Assembly: GCA_964487135.1 (NCBI GenBank)
Contig: CAZAOU010000001.1
Span: forward strand, 8,542 to 72,541
Source: an uncultured Candidatus Saccharibacteria bacterium
GTDB taxonomy: Bacteria; Patescibacteriota; Minisyncoccia; Phycocordibacterales; CAIRYW01
DNA length: 64,000 nt
Reading direction: 5' to 3'
This document shows, piece by piece, positions 5,585 to 59,835 of this stretch. Position 1 is the stretch's first letter, and every line of letters starts with the position of its first letter. A model generated the notes under the pieces. It was given only the letters and a program-made list of their open reading frames with translations, was not told the origin of the DNA and ran no database searches. The position numbers were made by a program, and so were the translations under genes.

Positions 5585-5613
5585 TTGAAAAGTCAATATT
5601 ATTGTGCTATGGT
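5585..5613 (+). promoter_or_regulatory. sigma70-like promoter TTGAAA-17-TATGGT placed for a near-leaderless transcript of the 5622 ORF
   Basis: -35 at 5585-5590, 17-nt spacer, -10 at 5608-5613, ATG at 5622. Confidence 0.4.
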
Positions 5614-5621
5614 TTTGGGCG

Positions 5622-6044
5622 ATGCAAACAAAGCTCATTCAGCTCGTGATCGTGCTCGTCGCGATCTTCGCCCCTCTCTCTGGCCTCAATGCCCAGGAGG
5701 TGGAAAAACCAAAATCAACCCCACCCGTGAATCTTCTCAAGGACTCTGTCTCTGAGACAATACCTATCAGTGTTCTGTCTGAGGATGCCAACGGGTATGT
5801 CGTTCGTGAGATTTTTGTCATGCAAGGAAAGAGGTTGGCAGTTGTCCAGCGAATCGGTGTAATGAGCATCGATTTTTCGAGAAATAGTGTCTCGATTTCT
5901 CAGCTCGGCGAATGCCTCGTGGTCAAGGTTCCTTGGGGTATACCCGAAGAAGGCGAAAAAAAATTTACCGGCTTCATTAAGAAGGAAGGTGGAAAGATCG
6001 GAATGCTCTATCCGATTACAGGTGAAGTAACTTTCTACGAGTAG
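5622..6044 (+). CDS. secreted hypothetical protein encoded in GC-richer island A
   Basis: signal peptide MQTKLIQLVIVLVAIFAPLSGLNAQ; GC-rich codons unlike flanking genes; the track ORF begins at GTG 5604. Confidence 0.45.
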   Translation: MQTKLIQLVIVLVAIFAPLSGLNAQEVEKPKSTPPVNLLKDSVSETIPISVLSEDANGYVVREIFVMQGKRLAVVQRIGVMSIDFSRNSVSISQLGECLVVKVPWGIPEEGEKKFTGFIKKEGGKIGMLYPITGEVTFYE

Positions 6045-7233: not shown

Positions 7234-7748
7234 AAATAATTATTTTTATATTCTTTTATAAATGCAATATGCGCTCTCGTGTTAAAGCATGAGTGATAAG
7301 CATCAAAAGAGAGAGTGTGGAGTTGTTTCTCTAATATAGATAAAACCTCATCAATGTCATACCAAAAAACCTCTATTCCTTCCTCATCTTTTAATATTGT
7401 GGTTGGAGAGCCTTTATTACCAACAACCTTACAAACAAAGCCGTGAATTACTTGGTGGGTGCCATGCTTTGTTCTGAATTCGTCACTTACACCCAATTCT
7501 TGAAGTATTGAAACCTCACATCCAATTTCTTCTTTCATCTCTCTGTGTAATGCTTCTTCAAGCGATTCACCTTCCTCCACACCTCCTCCAGGAAGATGAA
7601 AGTTTTTTACACGGACTAAAGCTAATTTATTTTCTGAATCAAATACAAGAGCCTTAACCCTTGAAACCTCTTTATAGACTTCAGGTTCTGGTGTAAGAAG
7701 ATTTTCTGGAAAAATATCTTTATCGCTTTGCTGTAAGATTGTTTTCAT
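7230..7748 (-). CDS. Nudix hydrolase (second, adjacent)
   Basis: Nudix box GGGVEEGESLEEALHREMKEEIG; 4-nt overlap with the downstream Nudix gene. Confidence 0.8.
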   Translation of the reverse strand: MKTILQQSDKDIFPENLLTPEPEVYKEVSRVKALVFDSENKLALVRVKNFHLPGGGVEEGESLEEALHREMKEEIGCEVSILQELGVSDEFRTKHGTHQVIHGFVCKVVGNKGSPTTILKDEEGIEVFWYDIDEVLSILEKQLHTLSFDAYHSCFNTRAHIAFIKEYKNNYL

Positions 7749-8028
7749 GTTTTTTTTCTTGCAAAATAATCTGCTGTTTGTCTTTTCCTAGAAGACCGTT
7801 ATATTTTCCAATTTTTCCATTCCCTAGAATTACTCGGTGACACGGAATATTTTTGTCGGCATTATTTTTCATAATATTTCCAACGACTCTAAAGGCTTTT
7901 GGATTTTCGGCCTTCATTGCTACTTCTTTGTATGAAAGGGTTTTTCCTTTTGGAATTTTTGCAACAACTTTTAAAACTCTAGCCTTAAAAGAGTTTTCCT
8001 GGTTTTGGTTCTTTATTTTTTTTCTCAT
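7720..8028 (-). CDS. ogt: methylated-DNA--protein-cysteine methyltransferase (single-domain Ogt/MGMT-like)
   Basis: active-site motif IPCHRVI plus helix-turn-helix LSYKEVAMKAENPKAFRVVGNIMKNN; start taken at the internal MRKKIK; the longer ORF would overlap the upstream gene by 110 nt. Confidence 0.7.
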   Translation of the reverse strand: MRKKIKNQNQENSFKARVLKVVAKIPKGKTLSYKEVAMKAENPKAFRVVGNIMKNNADKNIPCHRVILGNGKIGKYNGLLGKDKQQIILQEKKHENNLTAKR

Positions 8029-10846: not shown

Positions 10847-12070
10847 TTAGATAGGAAGATTTGCTGGAGGTTCAGATTTTTTAGCCTCGATTCGTCCGAT
10901 TGTTGGGGTTTTAGCTACTTCTCCTGGGAAGTGATAAATAGTTGCTAATCCTTCTGTACTCATTGTAAAGAAATGTCCTGGATTAGGCTTATGAAAGAAT
11001 TCTCTTTCTCCGTAGGCATGAATAGTGTGCTCTTTTCTTCCAAGTAATCTTTTTCCAGTAAAATCTTGCCAAGGATAATCAAAACTTGTGGCGTGATCCG
11101 CTTCAAAACTATTTAGGTTGGCTGAGTTGTATTGTCTAAATGCTCCATTTAGTCCTGCAACATTTATCTCATTAAATTTATCTAGAGGAGCAAAATACAG
11201 CGCTCTAATACCAACATCAAAAGGAATTTTAGATATGTTGTGTTGAATGGCATCAATTATTTCTCTGTCGCCTTTAGAAAGACTAAAACCCTCAAGTTTT
11301 ACATCACCAATCGCACTCGTATCTTGCCCTTTAAGTTTTTTAATTTCTTCATTTGCTGCATATGTCCAGTCTACTTTTTCAAACCAAGTTCCGGGTTTTG
11401 TTTGTTCTTTTTTATGAGCTCTAATTAATATTTGTATCCAAGCTTGCTCACCTTCTCTTAAAGATCCCAAATATTCAAGAATGGGGGTCATTGGGTCAAC
11501 TTTTAGTTCCTCGTCAGGGTCTTTGTCGAGTTTGTATTTTTCATAGGTAAGAATCGGATAATGGCTTGCTTTTGAGAGTTTAAAATTACATCCCCACAAA
11601 TCCATATTGTGATGGTTAAAATGAACTTTAGATGTGTAGTCTTCGACTTCTTTTATTTCTATATCAGGAAATTGAGCGTACAGTTGCGACACGACTAAAT
11701 GTTTCCAAAATTTCCAGCACCAAATATAAAATCTAATGTTTCCTCCGTCAGAAATTAGTTCTAGAGAAAACCATGGGCGAACTTTTCCATATAAATATCT
11801 GTTTATCCACGTGCCCTCACCTTTTGTCTGATAAAGGGAAGTCAAAAATAATTCCATTGCCAAAGGAGATTTTGGAAATATTCTAGGTAACTTTATTTCT
11901 AGTACAACTTTTTCCTGAGCATGGATAAATTGTTGTCTTCGCAAAGTTACGAATGATTCAAAAAAGAACCACGCCAAAATAATTGGTGCACAAATAATAA
12001 CAAGCACCCAAGCAAAGCCCAGACCGTTTGTAAAAACATCGTTAAAGGGACTAAAAAAACTCGCTTCCAT
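10847..12070 (-). CDS. hypothetical membrane protein
   Basis: 407 aa; N-terminal TM helix (FAWVLVIICAPIILAWFFF); no recognisable motif. Confidence 0.35.
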   Translation of the reverse strand: MEASFFSPFNDVFTNGLGFAWVLVIICAPIILAWFFFESFVTLRRQQFIHAQEKVVLEIKLPRIFPKSPLAMELFLTSLYQTKGEGTWINRYLYGKVRPWFSLELISDGGNIRFYIWCWKFWKHLVVSQLYAQFPDIEIKEVEDYTSKVHFNHHNMDLWGCNFKLSKASHYPILTYEKYKLDKDPDEELKVDPMTPILEYLGSLREGEQAWIQILIRAHKKEQTKPGTWFEKVDWTYAANEEIKKLKGQDTSAIGDVKLEGFSLSKGDREIIDAIQHNISKIPFDVGIRALYFAPLDKFNEINVAGLNGAFRQYNSANLNSFEADHATSFDYPWQDFTGKRLLGRKEHTIHAYGEREFFHKPNPGHFFTMSTEGLATIYHFPGEVAKTPTIGRIEAKKSEPPANLPI

Positions 12071-17781: not shown

Positions 17782-17879
17782 GAGGTTTACAATATAGCAA
17801 ATAAGTGTTTGTATTACTAATGATTATGAAAAGAACCTTTATTTTGGTCACTTTTTTCGTCGTATGGCAAAAGAAAGAT

Positions 17880-18180
17880 GTCCAAAAAATTCCAAAGTCA
17901 AGGAGACCAAGAGTTGGAAGGCGATACATCCAGCACGCATTCCAATGCGAATCAGAGCTGGACCTTACCCAGGTCCCCTACCTCATGAAAATCTTGCGTG
18001 AGCTAGAGTCTTCTGAAGGCGAATCGTCCACAAGACTCGAGGGAGTGAGACTCATAAGGGCTAAGAACCCTCCACGCGAATGCCTCGGCATTTTCTGGAG
18101 CAGTCAGCTACCCCGACTCATGGACAAAGTCCATGAACTCAATCGACGCGGAGTCGAACTAGACTTCAAAAAATAATTTT
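17880..18180 (+). other. GC-rich structured island B, a candidate ncRNA or foreign small ORF; identity unresolved
   Basis: about 300 nt of clearly higher GC than the flanks; perfect internal hairpin catggac-aaa-gtccatg; gcgaat occurs three times; ends at an intrinsic terminator; the overlapping 123-aa ORF has no SD and an implausible composition. Confidence 0.25.
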
Positions 18181-28786: not shown

Positions 28787-30157
<1,371 letters not shown>

Positions 30158-34807: not shown

Positions 34808-35018
34808 ACAACAAAAAAAACCGCCCGTCCAAAGCAGTTTCAAAATTTATTTTGCTATAAAAATTATTAGCAAAATATTTTCCTGCTCGGGATAATAAAG
34901 ATTTTCTAAAGATCGGACTTGTTTTGCTAAATTGCAAACTTTACCGTTGCGGCACAGCGGAGGAATCAAACCTCACTTCCATAGAAAACCTATTTACGAA
35001 TCAATGAACAATAATACT

Positions 35019-36179: not shown

Positions 36180-36965
36180 GTGGCTTACCAAAATCTCTTT
36201 TGGTATGATGTCTTTATTATGAAAAGACGAATATACATAAGTTTATTAGTGCTTGTTGTAGCGATAGTTGTTTTATTAACTATTTTTCCTAAAACCACCT
36301 CCCATATTGAATTAACAACTCCAAATAATAAAGAAAATATATCTGAAAATAATTCCAACACTTCATCTACAACAGATTCTGCAACAAAATTAGTTTTATC
36401 AAAACCTCAGAGCCCTGAATGGGAAGTTTTTCAAAAATATATTACTTTTGCTAAAAACCATGATTTGGAAGGAATAAAAACACTTTCATACCAAATTTCA
36501 GAAACTTGCAAAGATAAAAATTTAGAAAAACAGTGTTTTGCTTTGATGGACAATGTGTATCAGATCGGCTCAAATCTCAAAGAATCAAACTATGTAAACA
36601 AATGGTCTGATGGCAAACAAATAATAATCTCAACAAATCCTGTTAAAAAAACTGAGGGAGATAATGTTGGATATCAGCAAGGTTTTATTATTTTCACAAA
36701 AGATAACTCGGGAAATTTAAAACTTTTAGGGTTAGATCCATACAAAAGTGTTTATTTGTCTAAAAAAGATTTCTCGGCAACGGAATTAGAAACAAGACTA
36801 AAAGCAATGCTTGCCGATAGTGATAAAGATGGACTGTATGACGAAGAAGAAAATTGTTCTGGAATATATTCAAATCCTAAATGCATAAAAACTAATCCAA
36901 ACAAAAGAGATTCTGATGGCGATGGTTGGTGGGATAGAATAAATTCTCTGTTTTATAAAAATTAA
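36180..36965 (+). CDS. secreted hypothetical protein with C-terminal DxDxDG calcium-binding-like repeats
   Basis: TM/signal segment RIYISLLVLVVAIVVLLTIF; DSDKDGLYDEE and DSDGDGWWD motifs. Confidence 0.4.
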   Translation: MAYQNLFWYDVFIMKRRIYISLLVLVVAIVVLLTIFPKTTSHIELTTPNNKENISENNSNTSSTTDSATKLVLSKPQSPEWEVFQKYITFAKNHDLEGIKTLSYQISETCKDKNLEKQCFALMDNVYQIGSNLKESNYVNKWSDGKQIIISTNPVKKTEGDNVGYQQGFIIFTKDNSGNLKLLGLDPYKSVYLSKKDFSATELETRLKAMLADSDKDGLYDEEENCSGIYSNPKCIKTNPNKRDSDGDGWWDRINSLFYKN

Positions 36966-36988
36966 ATAGAGGTTAGATAAAAAAATGC

Positions 36989-37024
36989 GCGCCAGCCGGA
37001 CTTGCGTTCGGCTGGCGCTTTTTT
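36989..37024. terminator. GC-rich bidirectional intrinsic terminator (gcgccagccg-10 nt-cggctggcgc, T6)
   Basis: 10-bp perfect stem followed by tttttt on + and attttttta on the reverse complement; marks the left edge of GC-rich island D. Confidence 0.55.
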
Positions 37025-37046
37025 ACATAGGCGATTTTGGTTGGTC

Positions 37047-38159
37047 TTAACCCCGACGATCCTTCCCGAGGAACACGACTCTCGGGCAAACCACTGTGGG
37101 ATTCTGGAAGTAAACGTTCGGCTGAATTAGCGCGTCCGTTGCATCTTTCCAGATCCAGTTTTGCGGTGAAAACTTCATCGTAACCGTCGGCGGATTCTTC
37201 AGGTTGTAGTAGCTGAAGGTTCCAGTAATTCCGAAGGATGTTACCCCTTCTTCGTAGTAGAGTTTTACCCCAGGAAACGTCACCTTGATACGATCGCCGG
37301 CGAGTTTAAACTGGGGCTTCACAGGTTTTGTTCCGGGAATAATTACCCCGTTACTGTCGGTAATCGCGACGTTAGTCAGCCCACTGAGGAGCTTCGAGTC
37401 GGCGACACTGAACCACAACTCAAACTCCATGTTCTCGCTGTGCACCTGCATATTCTCAACATTGACGGAAATCACCCCGAGCGTAACTCGGCGACCACCA
37501 ACCTTGAGGTAGTCAACCATCGGCGGAACGATACTTTGCCCTGCCTTGACCTGAACTCTCCCGCGCGGATAGTAGCCTGATACCACAGTGTGATAATTCC
37601 CCACCGTGCTCGCGTTATACATCCACCAGATCTCTGTGTTGTCGTCAGCGTCGAGGTAGTTCAAACTGACTCGAATTGTCTCACCGCCGTGTTGATATGC
37701 ACGACCACCCACGAGTCCGTAGACGACGTAGGATTGGTAAGCACCGTTCGGACGAATGAGATCATCCTGAATCGGCAGGACGAATTCGCCTTGCTGACCG
37801 GAAATAATCGGGAGTCGCCCCACGACTTTTTCTTTGATGTCGTGAACTTCCTGAACCTCGCCGTTTTTGTCGACAACTGCTTTTACGGTGTCATCTTGAG
37901 CGACAGCGACCAGGGCATCGAAAACTTCCGCGGGCCCACTGATGTTGAGGTGGAGAGCCGAGACGTCGCTCGGCCCAGTTCCGATTCCGTGATGAATCCG
38001 GAGAACCTCACCGAGGGTTCCGGGAACGAGATTGGTGCTCGGCAATTGAGCCCCCTCAAGGATTTCGATGTGGACTTTCGCCAACACCTGGTTGGGCGTG
38101 GCGATTAGGGCGAAGATCGTCGCGAAGGCGACGATCATAACAGACTTCAGTTGCTTCAT
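37047..38159 (-). CDS. secreted hypothetical protein of GC-rich island D
   Basis: GC-rich codons; signal peptide MKQLKSVMIVAFATIFALIATPNQVLA (start at 38159; the longer ORF runs to 38231); beta-rich, no known motif. Confidence 0.45.
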   Translation of the reverse strand: MKQLKSVMIVAFATIFALIATPNQVLAKVHIEILEGAQLPSTNLVPGTLGEVLRIHHGIGTGPSDVSALHLNISGPAEVFDALVAVAQDDTVKAVVDKNGEVQEVHDIKEKVVGRLPIISGQQGEFVLPIQDDLIRPNGAYQSYVVYGLVGGRAYQHGGETIRVSLNYLDADDNTEIWWMYNASTVGNYHTVVSGYYPRGRVQVKAGQSIVPPMVDYLKVGGRRVTLGVISVNVENMQVHSENMEFELWFSVADSKLLSGLTNVAITDSNGVIIPGTKPVKPQFKLAGDRIKVTFPGVKLYYEEGVTSFGITGTFSYYNLKNPPTVTMKFSPQNWIWKDATDALIQPNVYFQNPTVVCPRVVFLGKDRRG

Positions 38160-38377
38160 AGGAAAAACCGGCTTGTTAGCCGGCGTAGTTTTTTTTGCTT
38201 TGGGTTTTTCGTTTAACCTAAGGCTGTCCATTCGCAGGCAACAAGCTTTCGCTTATGCTTTTGTAAAGTACAACAAAAAACTGCCATTCAGCAGTTTTCC
38301 TAGGTTGTTGCGATTATAGCATACTTTTATAAATATGTAAATACTTAACTCTCCAACCCTTAGGTTAATTAAAATAA

Positions 38378-38406
38378 TTGACAAAACCTAATATAAATTT
38401 TATAGT
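38378..38406 (+). promoter_or_regulatory. near-consensus sigma70 promoter TTGACA-17-TATAGT in the AT-rich divergent spacer of island D
   Basis: -35 at 38378-38383, exact 17-nt spacer, -10 at 38401-38406; drives the 38514 gene. Confidence 0.5.
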
Positions 38407-38513
38407 ACACAAACGTTCTTTCCAGATTAAGACCAAAAGCCGAGTGGCCAAGGTTATCATCCTGCAAAGACCAAACAAGACCGAAAACAAACAGAAACCA
38501 CCGTATCAACCGT

Positions 38514-39095
38514 ATGAAAAACCTCACTGCCCTCGTCGCCCAATTTCCGGTCGCCGAGTTCAAATCACCAACAAACAAAGTCCAAGAAGGCGAAACCGTC
38601 CTCGGGGTTCTCCCCGACGATCTCAAACGTCTCTGGGGCTTCCTCCAGTCGCTTCGAGAGAAGCACAAACCTGAACTGAAGCGTCTCTCCGATGAGCACA
38701 TGAAACTGAACGCGGCCTTCTTGGCCGACCACATGACCGGAAGTCTCGACAAATCGGGCAAGCACAACCACGCGGCTTGCGAAGCCAGGCAACGCGAAAT
38801 CATGGACCTCGCAACCCAATACAAGGGCCTTACCGACGAGATCGACGCGATCGCGCGCATCTTCTGGGACTCGGTGCGTGTGGAGTTCAACGCCTTTGAC
38901 GCCGACCAGATCGGTCTCCGTGAGAAGGGTCAAGTCGTCGCCATGAAGAGCAAGAAATACGAGACGATCGAATTCGAGGGAAATTTCGCCGACCTCGGCG
39001 AACTACTCGAAACCATCAGTCGCGGTTTCCGCACGCCTCCGCGTCGCGGTCGTCGCACGGGCTTCTTCAGTCAAATCTTCGGCAACGGTCACTAG
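38514..39095 (+). CDS. hypothetical protein of GC-rich island D
   Basis: 193 aa GC-rich ORF MKNLTALVAQFPVAEFKS...; no recognisable family. Confidence 0.4.
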   Translation: MKNLTALVAQFPVAEFKSPTNKVQEGETVLGVLPDDLKRLWGFLQSLREKHKPELKRLSDEHMKLNAAFLADHMTGSLDKSGKHNHAACEARQREIMDLATQYKGLTDEIDAIARIFWDSVRVEFNAFDADQIGLREKGQVVAMKSKKYETIEFEGNFADLGELLETISRGFRTPPRRGRRTGFFSQIFGNGH

Positions 39096-39120
39096 ACCGT
39101 CCTCAAGTCTATCTGACATC

Positions 39121-39154
39121 TACCCAAGCCCCTAAAGCTTGGGTAGAATTTTTA
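39121..39154 (+). terminator. intrinsic terminator after the island D gene (tacccaagc-ccctaaa-gcttgggta, then gaattttta)
   Basis: 9-bp stem followed by a T-run 25 nt after the stop. Confidence 0.4.
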
Positions 39155-39170
39155 TACTAAAAAGTATTTA

Positions 39171-41498
39171 CTAAACAATCTCACAAACTCCGGCAACACA
39201 CGCAAGCTCCTTCTTTACTTCTGTTTCGTCCTGCTTCTCGTAAGTAATTATTTTTGAGTAATCAATTTTAGGGAATTTTTTGAGAAGTTCTTCATATCGC
39301 TCTTTAGTAATTGTTTCGTAGGGTGCAAGCTGGTATACATGGTTTGATCGAGGCAAAAATGAAAGTCCTCCAATAATATCCCAGTTTTCGTAAAGCCAGT
39401 GTGCCACTGCAATCCATTCATCATCACCTATAGAAATAGTTACTGAAGGATTGTGTTCTGTAAAATTATTTTTAACAACTTTCCAATGCTCTAACTGTTC
39501 TATTGCAGTAACATCATCCTTAAAAATTGCTCCTTCAGGTGACTTCATTGGAAACTCAACCACATATGTAGTCGCTGTTTCTTTTGCTTGACCAACTTCT
39601 GGATGATATGGAACACCTTGGTCTTTAAGCATTTTAAAGAGTGCGTCAGTTGCAGAAATTCTAATTCGCTGGATGTAGAAAGGCGCATGTCGTGGATGCA
39701 TTCCAGAACCTGTATCAAAAGTTTTTGAAACTGTTCCCGAAGGCTTAACACAAGTAATACACGTAGAAGCACTTATACCAAATCTTTTTGCAAATTCTTT
39801 GTTTACTTTAATTGCTTCGTCTTTAAGAGCTTTCAAAACTTCTGGCTTTCTTACAACTGGCGAATCCCACTGTCCTGTAAGAGATACTCCAAGAAGTCTT
39901 TCTTGCTCGCAGTGTTCTTTCCATTCTTTAGAAAGATAAGGAAACTGCGTAAGAGATGACTGATATGTTCCAAGGATTGTTGCGATTCTTGTTTTTTTGA
40001 GAAGAGTTTCTTTTGTATCATTTTCTCTACAAATTACTTCTGAAAGATTACAAAATTGTTTTGATTGCAAAATAATTTCTCCACAAGGATTTGTTCCTAT
40101 TGATCCAACAATGTTTGTTCCTGTTGAATCAAAATATCCTTCAGTCTTTAGGAGTTTAAGTCGTCGCTCAGGAAGAGTTTGTGCAAGAGATCCTCTGTTA
40201 AATATTCCTCTTTCTCCTGTTCCACTCTTCATAAGAGCAGTCCACTCATCCAAAAACTCTGTTGCTGATGGTTTTGAAAGATACACAGCTGAGTTGTTTG
40301 CAAGACTTCGGTGAGGATCTGTGAGGAAAAATTGTCCTTTTTTACAATCTCTAATCTCATTATCATCCAAATCGGATAGAGAAATCATCGCACTTCTTCT
40401 TACCCCTCCAGAAACAACACAGTCGCCAATCATACAAATAATGTCGTGAACATCTAGGTTTGAAAGTCTTCTACCCTGCTTTTTTAGCATTTTTTCTCTT
40501 GTAAAAGAAAGAAGTCTTCGCAAAGGATCAGGACCTGATGATTTTCCACCCATAGTGTTTAGCCTTGCCCCTGCTGGACGAAGAAGAGAGTAGTCAAACT
40601 CTACATCTTTTCCCTCAGCCCAAGTTTTTAGTCCAAGCGCCAAAGAATCAGCCCAACCCTCTTTACTATCTGGAATGACAAACGATGGGAGTTTGTGTCC
40701 GCTCTGAACTTTTATTTGTGGAAGTTTTTGAACATTCTGACTTTCAACAGACCATCCTACTCCTGTTCCACACATTGATAGATACATAATTTCTGCAATA
40801 TCTTGAAAACTTGCTGGAGCTGTAAAAGAACAGTTATATACACAAACATTTGTCGCTCTCGCTGCTTTGCCAGCAAATTGAAGAAGTCTCATTGACGGCA
40901 TTGATTTGTTTTCTAGAATATATTGTCGAATTTCTGCATACTCTGAATCTTTTAATTTCTTTCCGAGATTTTCTTTCATGAAATCAATGTATCGTCCAAC
41001 AGTTTCAATCCATGTTTCTCTTCTTCCTTCTTCTGCAATCCATTTTGAATATGTTCTGTAGTATACAAATTCACCAAGCTCTGTTCTAAAATATTTTTTA
41101 CTATCTGTTGCAAGTTTTTTTACTCGCTCAGGAACCTGAACTCCTTTCTCACGAAGCTTTGAACGCTTCTCTCTATACAAAATATAACCCTTGGCTGTCT
41201 TTACATACTCACTAAGAATGAGTTCCTTCTCAACTGTGTCCTGAAGACCCTCAACCGTAGGTATAAAATTCTTGTATTTCTTAGAAATCCTTACAACATC
41301 AGCAAAAACCTTGTTAGCAACCATCTCCGCTTCCTTTAAAGAGCCCTCACCGTTTGCAACCATAGATTTATAGATTGCATTAACGATTTTTTTTGTATCA
41401 AATGGCACAATTGTTCCGTCTCGTTTTTGAATTTTTGAAACAAAAACTTGTTCTTCAACCTTTTTTGACTCTTTCTTACTTTTTTTGGAAGGGCCCAT
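39171..41498 (-). CDS. nrdJ: adenosylcobalamin-dependent (class II) ribonucleotide reductase with an N-terminal ATP-cone
   Basis: ATP-cone VFVSKIQKRDGTIVPFDTKKIVNAIYKS; active-site NPCGEIIL; C-terminal redox cysteines CVAGVCEIV; 775 aa monomeric architecture. Confidence 0.8.
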   Translation of the reverse strand: MGPSKKSKKESKKVEEQVFVSKIQKRDGTIVPFDTKKIVNAIYKSMVANGEGSLKEAEMVANKVFADVVRISKKYKNFIPTVEGLQDTVEKELILSEYVKTAKGYILYREKRSKLREKGVQVPERVKKLATDSKKYFRTELGEFVYYRTYSKWIAEEGRRETWIETVGRYIDFMKENLGKKLKDSEYAEIRQYILENKSMPSMRLLQFAGKAARATNVCVYNCSFTAPASFQDIAEIMYLSMCGTGVGWSVESQNVQKLPQIKVQSGHKLPSFVIPDSKEGWADSLALGLKTWAEGKDVEFDYSLLRPAGARLNTMGGKSSGPDPLRRLLSFTREKMLKKQGRRLSNLDVHDIICMIGDCVVSGGVRRSAMISLSDLDDNEIRDCKKGQFFLTDPHRSLANNSAVYLSKPSATEFLDEWTALMKSGTGERGIFNRGSLAQTLPERRLKLLKTEGYFDSTGTNIVGSIGTNPCGEIILQSKQFCNLSEVICRENDTKETLLKKTRIATILGTYQSSLTQFPYLSKEWKEHCEQERLLGVSLTGQWDSPVVRKPEVLKALKDEAIKVNKEFAKRFGISASTCITCVKPSGTVSKTFDTGSGMHPRHAPFYIQRIRISATDALFKMLKDQGVPYHPEVGQAKETATTYVVEFPMKSPEGAIFKDDVTAIEQLEHWKVVKNNFTEHNPSVTISIGDDEWIAVAHWLYENWDIIGGLSFLPRSNHVYQLAPYETITKERYEELLKKFPKIDYSKIITYEKQDETEVKKELACVAGVCEIV

Positions 41499-41689
41499 AA
41501 TGTTCTTCAGATTTATTTATTAATAATTAAATTTACAGATAGTATTTTACCTTATTTTTTTATCAAAAACACAGTGGATAAAAGTTTTTTACTCATCCCA
41601 AAACATTTTTATTGCTGTGTGAATATCACTAGCCAAAAACATAACAATAGGGCTATTAAATGGGGTAGGATTTTATAAATTCAATCGGG

Positions 41690-41762
41690 TGGACCTGATC
41701 GGACTTGAACCGACGACCTCTGCTATGCCATAGCAGCGCTCTACCAGCTAAGCTACAGGCCC
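41690..41762 (-). tRNA. tRNA-Ala (anticodon GGC), CCA not encoded
   Basis: GGGCCTGTAGCTTAGCTGGTAGAGCGCTGCTATGGCATAGCAGAGGTCGTCGGTTCAAGTCCGATCAGGTCCA; G3:U70 identity pair; anticodon loop AT-GGC-AT. Confidence 0.8.
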
Positions 41763-41767
41763 AAAAA

Positions 41768-53798: not shown

Positions 53799-54059
53799 TT
53801 AAGCGGCATTTGGTAAGTCGGTCGTGGTCGTATCAATCCTTGTGATTTCCGCGGATGCCGGATCGTGTTTTTGGAGCCAGTCATAGCTTCCAGAACCAAC
53901 CCAGCCATTTACCACCCTGGAAAAGACAACACCGAACGCTGAGCCGTATTTTGTTAAGGCCCAGCCGGAAACTCCGTCCCGTTTTTCGGCTAGTTGTCCA
54001 CCTTTGTCACTCACAAAGGCCTGATCGAAGACTTGGATCTGTCTTGGTGTGTTGTTCAT
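53799..54059 (-). CDS. hypothetical small protein in GC-rich island F
   Basis: 86 aa from ATG (MNNTPRQIQVF...; the track ORF starts at TTG 54068); GC-rich and Gly/Trp-rich; no family recognised. Confidence 0.3.
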   Translation of the reverse strand: MNNTPRQIQVFDQAFVSDKGGQLAEKRDGVSGWALTKYGSAFGVVFSRVVNGWVGSGSYDWLQKHDPASAEITRIDTTTTDLPNAA

Positions 54060-54122
54060 GATGGTCAACGAACTTTTTGTCTTTTTTTATGGCCCATCCG
54101 CACTCACGGTAGGTCTTTGACA

Positions 54123-58872: not shown

Positions 58873-58942
58873 TTTTTCTTTAATTACAGAGAATTATTTT
58901 ACCTTTTTAAATAATTAATGAAAGCCGAGAATACACACACCT

Positions 58943-59048
58943 CTCCCTTAACAACATAATTTTGAGCACGGATATCCTCCTACTGGCAGGATTCCTCGTG
59001 CTCGCGTCGGTCACGCTCGCAAGTCTCAAAATTATGTTGTTAAGGGAG
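58943..59048. repeat. perfect 24-bp inverted repeat with a 58-nt structured spacer
   Basis: ctcccttaacaacataattttgag (58943-58966) and its exact reverse complement (59025-59048); spacer contains its own sub-hairpin ggatatcct...aggattcc. Confidence 0.6.
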
Positions 59049-59147
59049 ACTTATTAGAATTACACACCTATCCTTTGACACCAAAAAATATAGGAGTAGT
59101 CTTTTATATTAAGAAACCCGAAACTCCAAACCAACTCCAAATACACC

Positions 59148-59801
59148 ATGAACATTCAAAACTGGCTGACCGTCCTCGGCTTGCTGTTTGCCGGCACCAT
59201 CGTGCTGGCGTGGCTTAGTGGCTACCACCGGCGGATGAATCTCTATTCGTCCTGCTCGAACGATCCGGACCCTCGCTCAAGATGGATCCACTTCGGATTC
59301 GCGCTCTGCGCCGTCGCGTTCGTCTCAACTGCTCTGGTGGCGCTGAGCCACAGATCGTCCGAGGCAACGACCTTCGAAAAAAAAGTGGAACGCTTGGGGC
59401 TGGCACTCCAAAAAGAGATCCGCCGAGGCGAAAAACTGGAAGCAGAAAACGCTTCGCTCCTGCAGCTGGCAAAAATCAACTTCCTCGCAATCAAGGAGAG
59501 CGAGGTTTTGAGCATTCAAGCTCAGGAGGAGTTGCTCGCGATCATTCGCGACATGCAAGAATCCAAAACTCGTCTGAAAGCTCTGTGCGACTTCCATCAC
59601 AACTCCTACGCCGACCTTTGGCAAAAGAACACCAAGGTCCAAGAGGATCTCAAAGAGGTGATTGATGTCCTGCGGGAACTCCACGAAGAGAACGAGGCAC
59701 TCCACGAGCAAAACGATGCTCTGCGAAACTTCATCACAGGCGATGAGCAGAACATCCCAACAAGGGATCCACTCACAGTCTCCGGGAAAATCAGCCTCTA
59801 G
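59148..59801 (+). CDS. membrane-anchored coiled-coil protein of GC-rich island H
   Basis: TM helix WLTVLGLLFAGTIVLAWL; second hydrophobic segment; long Glu/Leu/Lys heptad region; GC-rich codons. Confidence 0.4.
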   Translation: MNIQNWLTVLGLLFAGTIVLAWLSGYHRRMNLYSSCSNDPDPRSRWIHFGFALCAVAFVSTALVALSHRSSEATTFEKKVERLGLALQKEIRRGEKLEAENASLLQLAKINFLAIKESEVLSIQAQEELLAIIRDMQESKTRLKALCDFHHNSYADLWQKNTKVQEDLKEVIDVLRELHEENEALHEQNDALRNFITGDEQNIPTRDPLTVSGKISL

Positions 59802-59805
59802 CAAC

Positions 59806-59835
59806 GCTCCCAATCAAATGGGGCGATTTTTTTAT
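59806..59835 (+). terminator. intrinsic terminator after the island H gene (cgctcc-caatcaaat-ggggcg, T7)
   Basis: 6-bp stem with a G-U pair, followed by attttttt. Confidence 0.35.

What the first reader, a model, noticed from the sequence alone, without database searches (positions are those of the whole stretch)
36985..39160. Largest GC-rich island: divergent gene pair (secreted 370-aa beta-rich protein and a 193-aa protein) around a textbook TTGACA-17-TATAGT promoter
Two kb of foreign-looking DNA are bracketed by a 10-bp GC-stem bidirectional terminator (36989-37024) and a second terminator (39121-39154). The AT-rich 280-bp divergent spacer carries a near-perfect sigma70 promoter at 38378-38406. 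One product has a clean Sec signal peptide (MKQLKSVMIVAFATIFALIATPNQVLA) and is rich in Gly, Val and Tyr. The other is cytoplasmic with no motif I recognise. This is a candidate two-component accessory module (toxin/immunity, adhesin/chaperone or phage-derived pair) inserted between a surface-protein gene and the B12-dependent ribonucleotide reductase.
Basis: seen in the sequence. Interest (0 to 1): 0.6.

Follow-up and report, generated by a model that had tools for sequence, protein, structure and literature searches.

The report
Two foreign single-gene cassettes, back-to-back
A 2.2-kb GC-rich patch in an AT-rich candidate-phyla (Parcubacteria-type) genome is real foreign-looking DNA, but it is two unrelated stand-alone genes sitting back to back rather than a working gene pair, and one of them belongs to an undescribed protein family that also occurs in a phage.

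Summary
Window 36986-39150 is 51% GC against flanks of 33-37%, and GC3 is 0.63 and 0.71 against 0.17-0.25 in neighbouring genes. Both terminators and the TTGACA-17-TATAGT promoter are present.

The "two-component module" reading is not supported. Gene A (370 aa, Sec-secreted, all-beta) has one known homologue and gene B (193 aa) has about 70 relatives. The two never co-occur in the loci examined.

Each is a self-contained transcription unit. Its promoter, 5' leader and terminator are conserved in distant relatives, more strongly than the coding DNA (about 70% against 50% identity).

B-family genes are stand-alone GC-rich cassettes in seven AT-rich contexts; the family members that carry an organism name are all from Parcubacteria. 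One member sits between RecT and an exonuclease in a 52%-GC phage contig, where its composition fits. B is therefore probably phage-derived.

A's only homologue also lies in a GC-rich patch, between two tRNA genes. A's leader is structured, with two terminator-like hairpins.

The biochemical functions remain inferred, and no known family or fold matches either protein. This is an ordinary kind of feature (horizontally acquired, moron-like islets) with some unusual details.

The parts
36982..37024 (.). Bidirectional intrinsic terminator: a 13-bp stem at 36989-37018 with 10 G-C pairs, an A-run upstream and T6 downstream. It ends cassette A on the minus strand and also the convergent host gene 36180-36965 on the plus strand. 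It marks the left compositional border of the island.
   Evidence: dG -28.0 on the + strand, -24.9 on the - strand. The outer stem GCGCC(A/G)GCC...GGC(T/C)GGCGC recurs after the A homologue in L001 with a compensatory change, read directly from the sequences.
37047..38159 (-). Gene A: a 370-aa Sec-secreted, all-beta protein. The signal peptide MKQLKSVMIVAFATIFALIATPNQVLA is encoded at 38079-38159. GC3 is 0.63.
   Evidence: 40% identity to P0001 over the full length; about 22 beta strands, but mean pLDDT is only 53; only weak similarity to tandem beta-sandwich adhesins.
38160..38306 (-). Conserved structured 5' leader of A. Hairpin 1 (38275-38300) is followed by T6. A multi-stem domain and an A/C-rich linker follow. 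Hairpin 2 (38167-38184) plus T5 ends 3 nt before the ATG.
   Evidence: alignment with L001; 27 predicted pairs, 5 of them with compensatory changes; promoter plus leader is 70-73% identical against 50% for the CDS; dG -11.1 and -12.0.
38313..38341 (-). Promoter of A: TTTACA-17-TATAAT with an extended-10 TG.
   Evidence: 11 of 12. The -35 and extended -10 are conserved in L001.
38378..38406 (+). Promoter of B: TTGACA-17-TATAGT.
   Evidence: 11 of 12. A perfect TTGACA with a 16-17-nt spacer is conserved upstream of B-family genes in L006, L009, L011, L013 and L014. L004 begins at the same TATAGTACACA.
38413..38513 (+). 5' leader of B. It is about 100 nt, unstructured, A/C-rich and G-poor (A40 C28 G17 T16), and has no Shine-Dalgarno sequence. 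It carries the conserved start-proximal block GTTCTTTCCAGATTAAGACCAAAAGCCGAGTGGCCAA.
   Evidence: no consensus structure; 67-74% identity to L014 and L013.
38514..39095 (+). Gene B: a 193-aa cytoplasmic protein. It has a small 3-stranded sheet, a long antiparallel helical hairpin, then an acidic linker, an amphipathic helix and a basic tail ending FFSQIFGNGH. GC3 is 0.71.
   Evidence: 64 relatives; alignments; pLDDT 83; tail motif.
39119..39153 (+). Terminator of B: an 11-bp stem plus a T-run. It marks the right compositional border.
   Evidence: dG -18.4. The 3' arm TTGGGT(A/G)GA(A)TTTT is conserved in L013 and L014.

Best explanation
OVERALL. The island is two unrelated, horizontally acquired, monocistronic expression cassettes. 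They lie back to back in one intergenic gap of an AT-rich genome that is probably a Parcubacterium. Each runs from its own sigma70-type promoter through a conserved leader and coding sequence to its own intrinsic terminator. This is the anatomy of a phage 'moron', but there is no surrounding prophage.

CASSETTE B. It encodes a member of an undescribed family of small helical-hairpin proteins. In Parcubacteria chromosomes the family occurs as stand-alone GC-rich cassettes. In one 52%-GC phage contig it is an ordinary operon gene between RecT and an exonuclease. The most likely history (inferred) is capture from a pool of phages or mobile DNA of about 50-55% GC, which matches the island's composition.
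- B is expressed from a strong constitutive-looking promoter.
- Translation would start without a Shine-Dalgarno sequence from an unstructured A/C-rich leader. That fits the host, whose own genes rarely carry SD motifs.
- Function (inferred, low confidence): a cytoplasmic adaptor that docks to the membrane or a partner through its C-terminal amphipathic ...LLxxLFG(G) tail. It may be linked to DNA-end or recombination transactions, given where the phage copy sits.

CASSETTE A. It encodes a Sec-exported, all-beta protein, probably of tandem beta-sandwich type, that most likely acts at the cell surface in attachment or host contact (inferred).
- Its leader carries two terminator-like hairpins, the second directly before the ATG.
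- Expression is therefore probably set by regulated read-through (attenuation) or by leader-dependent mRNA stability (inferred).

SHOWN VERSUS INFERRED. Shown: the foreign composition, the cassette anatomy, conservation of the regulatory parts, lack of co-occurrence and the phage-borne member. Inferred: direction and vehicle of transfer, and both protein functions.
For: COMPOSITION. GC3 is 0.63 (A) and 0.71 (B) against 0.17-0.25 in neighbours. The borders fall at the two terminators.

CASSETTE ANATOMY. Two 11/12 promoters and two strong terminators are present.

A FAMILY. One homologue was found among 5.8 billion proteins. No further carrier turned up in GTDB representative genomes, IMG/VR or JGI metagenomes. 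That homologue lies in a GC-rich patch (GC3 0.66 against 0.22-0.34) between tRNA-Met and tRNA-Asp. Its promoter, leader and terminator align with the window's.

B FAMILY. There are 64 relatives. The named ones are Staskawiczbacteria, Taylorbacteria and 'Parcubacteria group'.
- In the window plus six other distinct loci, GC3 is 0.56-0.83 against mostly 0.2-0.5 in neighbouring genes (a few neighbours are GC-rich too).
- The neighbourhoods are unrelated housekeeping genes, and each copy has its own promoter and terminator.

NOT CODON BIAS. Ribosomal-protein and EF-Ts genes in the same genomes are not GC3-rich.

PHAGE LINK. L015 7944-8405 matches the family profile at hhalign probability 98.9%, E 1.5e-17. 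Thirty family members hit it by tblastn. The contig is uniformly about 52% GC. Its neighbours are ParB-like, HNH, RecT (phrog_2780, 4.5e-67) and exonuclease (phrog_298) genes.

NOT A PAIR..

HOST SD USAGE. Only 5 of 47 host ORFs have an SD-like motif.

B FOLD AND TAIL. (pLDDT 83). The tail motif occurs in 35 of 71 members against 12.4 expected.

BACKGROUND. Gene-by-gene HGT is frequent in Patescibacteria and mostly occurs between Patescibacteria (PMC12455944).
Against: - No donor genome, integrase, transposase, flanking direct repeat or other phage gene is present in or beside the island.
- Only one viral contig carries a B-family gene. None was found in INPHARED phages or PLSDB plasmids. The direction could equally be bacterium to phage.
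- Synonymous sites between family members are saturated (third-position identity 0.36-0.37), yet every sampled chromosomal copy is still GC-rich. Simple 'recent transfer' then requires many independent recent events.
- Conservation of promoter, leader and terminator at this divergence shows constraint. It does not show that the unit moves as a block.
- Presence or absence of the island in close relatives could not be tested, because the flanking proteins are not on record.
- A's structural model has low confidence (pLDDT 53). No significant structural or sequence neighbour exists for B.
Confidence: 0.6

Rival explanations
1. Selection, not recent transfer. A and B are long-resident Parcubacteria genes. 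Their GC-rich codons and mRNA are actively maintained, for example for mRNA stability, slow or conditional translation on rare codons, or evasion of an AU-directed RNase. The compositional contrast would then be a functional property of these cassettes and not a scar of HGT.
For: - Family members are saturated at synonymous sites, yet all seven sampled chromosomal B genes and both A genes keep GC3 of 0.56-0.83 in genomes of 35-42% GC.
- The promoters are host-type, and the window's leaders lack SD like the host's own genes.
- No GC-rich bacterial donor was seen among the contexts examined.
- In L013 the B gene lies near an ECF-type sigma factor and HSP20, which hints at a stress regulon.
Against: - Ribosomal-protein and EF-Ts genes do not share the bias, so there is no general translational preference for G/C-ending codons.
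- A phage copy exists in a genome whose bulk composition (52%) matches the cassettes.
- Other, unrelated genes in these genomes (a histidine phosphatase in L011, GSP synthetase in L001) are also GC-rich. That is what plain HGT predicts.
- No mechanism was demonstrated.
Confidence: 0.2
2. First reader's model. A and B form one functional two-gene accessory module (toxin/immunity, adhesin/chaperone, or secreted effector plus cytoplasmic partner) acquired as a unit.
For: - The genes are adjacent and divergent, with the two -35 boxes only about 36 bp apart.
- Both have similar, C-rich third-position composition (C3 0.35 and 0.48).
- They share one compositional island.
Against: - There is no co-occurrence: no B-family gene in the A-homologue locus, and no A-like gene in the other B-family loci or the phage.
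- Family sizes differ greatly (2 against about 70 clusters).
- Each gene has its own promoter and terminator.
- There are no hits to defence or toxin libraries.
Confidence: 0.08
3. Artefact. The island is a chimeric join or mis-binned fragment in a metagenome-assembled contig.
For: - The source is a MAG-type contig.
- Composition changes abruptly at both borders.
- A itself and the flanking proteins are not on record in the gene-position index.
Against: - An independent Logan assembly spans window 38221-40321 (A's leader, B and the RNR junction) at 100% identity.
- The left border is a bidirectional terminator that serves both the host gene and A.
- The same GC-rich-cassette-in-AT-rich-context pattern recurs on contigs of up to 785 kb from different samples, sources and assemblers.
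Confidence: 0.03

Closest known systems
Phage 'morons': independent transcription units in lambdoid prophages (Juhala et al. 2000; Hendrix et al. 2000; cited from my own knowledge)
   Same: Each is a single gene bracketed by its own sigma70 promoter and factor-independent terminator. Base composition differs from the flanks, and the product is not needed by the surrounding genes. For B there is also a demonstrable phage relative.
   Different: There is no prophage around them: no PHROG hit in or beside the island and no integrase. The flanks are housekeeping chromosome. In the one phage that carries a B-family gene, that gene is an ordinary operon member 25 nt after RecT. It is not a moron there.
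Small genomic islets, or individually transferred genes, in Patescibacteria (PMC12455944)
   Same: These are compositionally atypical, gene-sized insertions in streamlined CPR genomes. The families are restricted to Patescibacteria, which fits mostly intra-phylum exchange.
   Different: Here the regulatory parts (promoter, leader, terminator) are conserved across distant copies more strongly than the coding DNA. The whole B family is GC-shifted relative to every host sampled. The passages of that paper that I read do not mention either feature.
Accessory genes of phage RecT/exonuclease (Red/RecET-type) recombination modules, such as lambda Gam (own knowledge)
   Same: One B-family member lies between RecT and the exonuclease. 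B is a small, largely helical protein.
   Different: B has no sequence or structural match to Gam or to any other solved protein. Gene order in early operons is weak functional evidence. The chromosomal copies stand alone, with no recombinase nearby.
MinD/FtsA-type C-terminal amphipathic membrane-targeting sequences, such as E. coli MinD ...KGFLKRLFGG (own knowledge)
   Same: B ends RRGRRTGFFSQIFGNGH. Relatives end ...LASLFGGH...IFGGR...RIFGK...ALFGG. The motif is enriched in the family's tails (35 of 71 against 12.4 expected).
   Different: This is a resemblance in a short linear motif only. The rest of the protein is unrelated to MinD or FtsA. Membrane binding was not tested, and the motif could equally be a partner-docking peptide.
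Tandem Ig-like/beta-sandwich surface adhesins (antigen I/II C-terminal domains, integrin leg domains, SGBP-B)
   Same: A is Sec-secreted and all-beta. Its best Foldseek hits are of this type (E 4e-5 to 1e-3).
   Different: TM-scores are at most 0.2 with rmsd around 20 A, from a model of pLDDT 53. A has no sequence match, no LPXTG, no lipobox and no C-terminal anchor.

Membership tests
Phage moron | Own promoter upstream and own intrinsic terminator downstream of a single gene | tested here: met
   for both A and B.
Phage moron | Base composition different from the flanking DNA | tested here: met
   GC3 is 0.63 and 0.71 against 0.17-0.25.
Phage moron | Located between genes of a (pro)phage genome | tested here: not met
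   The flanks are a 261-aa protein of unknown function and class II RNR. A and B have no PHROG hits and there is no integrase in the ORF list.
Classical genomic island | Atypical composition | tested here: met
Classical genomic island | Insertion next to a tRNA gene, flanking direct repeats, and an integrase or other mobility gene | tested here: not met
   The nearest tRNA (Ala, 41687-41763) lies beyond the RNR gene. No convincing flanking repeats were found; the only candidate is an AT-rich 24-nt inverted repeat at 79% complementarity. No recombinase ORF is present. The A homologue in L001 does lie between two tRNA genes.
Toxin-antitoxin or toxin-immunity pair | Conserved co-occurrence of the two genes across genomes | tested here: not met
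   There is no B-family gene in L001 and no A-like gene in L004, L006, L009, L011, L013, L014 or L015.
Toxin-antitoxin or toxin-immunity pair | Co-transcription, or homology to known toxin, immunity or defence families | tested here: not met
   The genes have divergent separate promoters. Neither A nor B has a PADLOC, Pfam or NCBIfam hit.
Integron gene cassette | attC recombination site at the 3' end, a promoterless ORF, and a nearby intI | tested here: not met
   Both genes carry their own promoters. The 3' hairpins are plain terminators followed by T-runs. No integrase is present.
Lambda Gam-like nuclease inhibitor / Red-module accessory protein | Gene located within a phage SSAP/exonuclease module | tested here: inconclusive
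   This is true for the single phage-borne member. It is not true for any chromosomal copy.
Lambda Gam-like nuclease inhibitor / Red-module accessory protein | Sequence or fold similarity to Gam | tested here: not met
   No Gam entry appears among the PDB Foldseek or HMM hits.
MinD-type membrane-targeting sequence | C-terminal amphipathic helix with basic residues that binds membrane | tested here: inconclusive
   The motif is present and enriched in the family. Helicity of the last 20 residues is not predicted (pLDDT below 50). Membrane binding cannot be tested in silico here.
Transcription-attenuation leader (A) | Intrinsic-terminator-like hairpin plus U-tract between promoter and start codon, conserved in relatives | tested here: met
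   Two such hairpins are conserved between the window and L001.
Transcription-attenuation leader (A) | Mutually exclusive antiterminator structure or a known ligand- or protein-binding aptamer | tested here: inconclusive
   There is no Rfam match at E<=1 apart from a spurious PtaRNA1 hit on the left terminator. Only two sequences are available, and no further copies were found.
Sec-dependent secreted protein (A) | N-terminal n-h-c signal peptide with an AxA-type cleavage site, conserved in the homologue | tested here: met
   MKQLK / hydrophobic core / VLA-K in A, and MQKKPK / core / AVA-N in P0001. Read from the alignment; no dedicated predictor was available.

The most novel reading that the evidence does not exclude
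AT-rich Parcubacteria may carry a dispersed class of self-contained, GC-rich, single-gene expression cassettes of phage or mobile origin. A, B, the 217-aa gene at 59148-59801 and possibly others would belong to it. Their alien composition would be kept over long periods either by selection on the mRNA or codons, or by continual re-invasion. Their expression would be governed by conserved leader RNAs. The A-type leader, with two terminator-like hairpins, would be an undescribed cis-regulatory RNA. The B family would be an undescribed phage-host shared protein acting at DNA ends or at the membrane.
Probability: 0.15. Interest if true: 0.65.

Novelty: new member of a known kind. Interest (0 to 1): 0.4.

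Why it matters
- It shows how streamlined CPR genomes gain genes: as ready-to-run single-gene units with their own promoter, leader and terminator. It also gives one concrete link between such a unit and a phage recombination module.
- It defines a new small protein family (B, about 70 clusters) with a confident predicted fold and no known relative.
- It flags a conserved, structured 5' leader (A) that could be a new regulatory RNA.
- If the family-wide GC excess proves to be selected and not a transfer scar, that would be an unusual case of composition acting as a functional trait.

Tried and rejected
FAMILY AND STRUCTURE SEARCHES
- Pfam, PHROGs, NCBIfam and PADLOC gave nothing for A or B.
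- PDB sequence profiles gave nothing meaningful. The one sub-threshold hit, a stretch of Cas12m at E 8.5e-4, covers only the helical region of B and I treated it as a chance coiled-coil match.
- Foldseek of B against PDB and BFVD found only generic helical hairpins, best E 0.25 and 0.07.
- A's model is too poor for fold assignment.

COLLECTION SCANS
- More A relatives were sought in GTDB genomes, but the only hit was the same genome as L001. IMG/VR and JGI metagenomes gave none.
- The A-leader pattern had 0 matches in metagenomes, and the covariance model found no further copies in the DNA held.
- INPHARED phages and PLSDB plasmids had no match.
- Further viral scans for B with four other queries found no new locus. 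Two other profile queries could not be run.

TESTS THAT COULD NOT BE COMPLETED
- Presence or absence in close relatives: exact look-ups of A, the RNR and the hydrolase were not on record.

IDEAS REJECTED
- High-expression codon bias, because ribosomal-protein and EF-Ts genes are not GC3-rich.
- The HNH-like 'KHNHAAC' string in B as a nuclease motif. It is not conserved: the only invariant residues are G31, F117 and W118.
- The 394-aa start for A, because the homologue has an in-frame stop upstream and the ATG directly after hairpin 2 is conserved.
- Integron cassette or transposon, because there is no attC, inverted repeats, target-site duplication or recombinase.
- RecT of the phage contig as a host indicator. 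Its relatives, at about 35% identity, are spread over actinophages, lactococcal phages and cyanophages.
Full report
**1.

The window averages 35.5% GC, while 36986-39150 is 51.4% GC with flanks at 33% and 37%. It is the largest GC-rich block in the window.

The contrast is concentrated at synonymous sites. GC3 is 0.63 for the 370-aa gene (A, 37047-38159, minus strand) and 0.71 for the 193-aa gene (B, 38514-39095, plus strand). The five flanking genes have GC3 of 0.17-0.25.

- **Left hairpin (36989-37018).** It has a 13-bp stem with 10 G-C pairs, an A-run before it and a T-run after it. It can therefore terminate both the convergent host gene and A.
- **Right hairpin (39119-39147).** It terminates B only.
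- **B promoter.** TTGACA-17-TATAGT lies at 38378-38406.
An equally good promoter lies on the other strand: TTTACA-17-TATAAT with an extended-10 TG, at 38341..38313.

An independent Logan assembly reproduces window 38221-40321 exactly, so the junction with the RNR gene is not an assembly artefact.

**2. What the two proteins are**

Neither protein matches Pfam, PHROGs, NCBIfam or PADLOC. Neither matches a solved structure by sequence.

*Protein A.* It has a typical Sec signal peptide and is predicted to be all-beta. Only two sequences were available, so the model is poor (pLDDT 53). Its Foldseek hits to tandem beta-sandwich adhesins have TM-scores of at most 0.2. I take from this only 'secreted, beta-rich, probably a surface protein'.

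*Protein B.* It gives a confident model (pLDDT 83, above 90 for residues 10-140). One strand is followed by a long antiparallel helical hairpin and a beta-hairpin that completes a three-stranded sheet. Then come an acidic linker, a short helix and a disordered basic tail. B has no significant structural neighbour in the PDB or among viral models.

**3. They are not a pair**

A has a single homologue among 5.8 billion proteins (P0001, 37-40% identity over the full length). It comes from a Parcubacteria MAG that is recovered in three independent assemblies.

B at first found only itself. The exhaustive search then found 64 relatives, and a profile search added more. Where a source gives an organism name, it is Staskawiczbacteria, Taylorbacteria or 'Parcubacteria group'.

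The A-homologue locus holds no B-family gene. The six other distinct chromosomal B-family loci and the phage locus hold no A-like gene. B-family genes sit singly among unrelated housekeeping genes, such as ribosomal proteins, RF1, NUDIX, RarA, MGS and HSP20. The toxin/immunity and adhesin/chaperone readings therefore have no support.

**4. Each gene is a self-contained cassette with conserved regulatory parts**

*Cassette A.* The 186 nt from the -35 box to the ATG are 70-73% identical to the corresponding region in L001. The coding DNA is only 50% identical, and 36% at third positions. The conserved parts are:
- the -35 and the extended -10;
- hairpin 1, with a GAAT loop, a compensatory stem change and T6;
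- a multi-stem domain, with 5 of 27 predicted pairs showing compensatory change;
- an A/C-rich linker;
- hairpin 2 (CCGGCT...AGCCGG followed by T5-6), which ends 3-4 nt before the ATG.

This fixes A's start at 38159. It also suggests regulation by attenuation or by leader-dependent mRNA stability. The terminator stems after the two A genes are also alike.

*Cassette B.* Several elements are recognisable in L013 and L014, whose proteins are 35-41% identical to B:
- the perfect TTGACA box with a 17-nt spacer;
- a block close to the transcription start (GTTCTTTnCAG..AGACnAA..);
- the A/C-rich stretch before the ATG, which lacks a Shine-Dalgarno sequence;
- the 3' arm of the terminator.

The B leader has no consensus structure. 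Host genes in this window rarely carry SD-like motifs (5 of 47), so the SD-less leaders suit the host.

One caveat applies. At this divergence, conservation shows that these parts are constrained. It does not show that the cassette moves as a block.

**5. GC-richness is a property of the families, not of this one locus**

- The A homologue has GC3 0.66 against 0.22-0.34 for genes outside its patch. It lies in a GC-rich patch between tRNA-Met and tRNA-Asp.
- B-family genes have GC3 of 0.83, 0.56, 0.68, 0.79, 0.78 and 0.59 in six further contexts of about 38-42% GC.
- Ribosomal-protein and EF-Ts genes in the same genomes sit at the baseline. High-expression codon bias is therefore not the cause.
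- The window contains at least one more cassette of the same style at 59148-59801: 217 aa, GC3 0.68, an A/C-rich SD-less leader and its own terminator. It also holds smaller candidates at 5604-6044 and 17805-18176.

**6. A phage link for B**

A profile scan of IMG/VR found one family member in a 106-kb viral contig (L015 7944-8405). Homology is secure: hhalign probability is 98.9% with E 1.5e-17, and 30 family members hit it by tblastn.

The contig is uniformly about 52% GC, so the gene is compositionally at home there. It starts 25 nt after a RecT gene and precedes an exonuclease gene, with HNH and ParB-like genes nearby.

This gives a plausible source pool whose composition matches the island. 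It also gives the only functional context clue for B, namely a phage early or recombination operon. The direction of transfer is not established, and no other viral, phage-database or plasmid hit was found.

**7. Best explanation and its limits**

I read the island as two independent, horizontally acquired, moron-like cassettes that share one intergenic gap (confidence 0.6).
- B is probably phage-derived.
- A is of unknown source but shows the same behaviour in its only other host.
- This fits published evidence that Patescibacteria exchange individual genes frequently, mostly among themselves (PMC12455944).

The main rival, at about 0.2, is that the GC excess is selected and not residual. Synonymous sites between family members are saturated, yet every chromosomal copy remains GC-rich.

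I could not test presence or absence in close relatives. There is no recombinase, repeat or prophage remnant that would indicate how insertion happened.

**8. Function (inferred)**

*A.* It is exported by Sec and most likely acts at the cell surface. Its expression is probably gated by the two-hairpin leader.

*B.* It is a cytoplasmic helical-hairpin protein with a conserved core built around G31, D36, L40, F117 and W118. Its tail motif ...LLxxLFG(G), often next to basic residues, is enriched in the family (35 of 71 members against 12.4 expected). The motif resembles the MinD-type membrane-targeting sequence (own knowledge). I propose membrane or partner docking through this tail, at low confidence.

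**9. Novelty**

The kind of feature, a small horizontally acquired islet with moron-like anatomy, is well known. Three things are new:
- the B protein family and its occurrence in both a phage and bacterial chromosomes;
- the conserved A leader;
- the family-wide compositional offset.

I score interest at 0.4.

Noticed in passing
window 59148-59801 (+), with leader 59100-59147 and terminator about 59805-59835: A third GC-rich orphan cassette of 217 aa (two N-terminal TM helices plus a coiled coil), GC3 0.68. Its A/C-rich, G-poor, SD-less leader resembles B's, and it has its own terminator. It has no Pfam hit and only a weak PADLOC PDC-S06 coiled-coil match (2.8e-5).
   Followed up: partly
window 58940-58964 and 59026-59050: A perfect 25-nt inverted repeat (tctcccttaacaacataattttgag / ctcaaaattatgttgttaagggaga) encloses a GC-rich core of about 60 nt, just upstream of the 217-aa cassette. 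It could be a structured RNA or a MITE-like element. It has no Rfam hit at gathering threshold.
   Followed up: no
window 5604-6044 (+) and 17805-18176 (+): Two smaller ORFs with raised GC3 (0.54 and 0.50), no Pfam match and their own terminators. The first has a signal peptide. They may be further foreign cassettes. The GC-rich ORFs at 29502-29807 and 53799-54068 look more like frame artefacts inside other features.
   Followed up: partly
window 34873-35001 (-): An AdoCbl (B12) riboswitch (54.7 bits, above the gathering score) lies upstream of a 179-aa gene and a 746-aa surface protein with a DUF4430 match. It is about 4 kb from the B12-dependent class II RNR. The island therefore sits inside a B12-themed neighbourhood.
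   Followed up: no
window, genome-wide: Only 5 of 47 host-like ORFs (at least 150 aa, GC3 below 0.33) have an SD-like 4-mer 4-20 nt upstream of the first ATG. This organism appears to make little use of Shine-Dalgarno sites. The count is crude because start codons were not curated.
   Followed up: partly
window 36940-36963 and 39147-39170: An AT-rich 24-nt inverted repeat, 79% complementary, falls exactly at the two outer borders of the island. It is probably chance in AT-rich DNA, but it is positioned like terminal repeats.
   Followed up: no
L014 2654-3259 (+): A second, divergent B-family paralogue (tblastn E 1e-8) lies immediately downstream of the B-family gene at 1997-2542. The family can therefore occur in tandem.
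   Followed up: no
L013 2186-6552: The B-family gene (GC3 0.78) lies in a run of small ORFs with raised GC3 (0.46-0.62). The run includes an ECF-type sigma factor and HSP20, which may indicate a stress-related or mosaic region.
   Followed up: no
L006 5026-5523 and 8173-10998: This B-family gene has a LAGLIDADG endonuclease gene directly upstream. A SduA_C (Shedu-like) gene and a tyrosine recombinase lie a few kb downstream. This looks like a variable, mobile-element-rich neighbourhood.
   Followed up: no
L011 9663-10620: Two further GC3-rich genes, a 116-aa orphan (0.62) and a histidine phosphatase (0.73), sit in a genome of about 40% GC. This shows that gene-sized GC-rich insertions are common in these genomes.
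   Followed up: no
L001 7898-9415 (-): The GC-rich patch holding the A homologue also carries a glutathionylspermidine-synthase-family gene (GC3 0.53) and a 111-aa lipoprotein-like gene. The whole patch lies between tRNA-Met (7736-7811) and tRNA-Asp (11396-11472).
   Followed up: partly
L015 5563-5943, 10736-11053 and 12038-12400: Three unrelated small phage ORFs all end in the same peptide, ...LRAIEL. This implies a repeated DNA element at gene ends in this viral contig, possibly a regulatory or recombination repeat.
   Followed up: no
window 36985-37028 (-): A weak Rfam hit to PtaRNA1 (24.5 bits against a gathering score of 47, E 0.055) falls on the left terminator hairpin. I judged it spurious.
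   Followed up: yes
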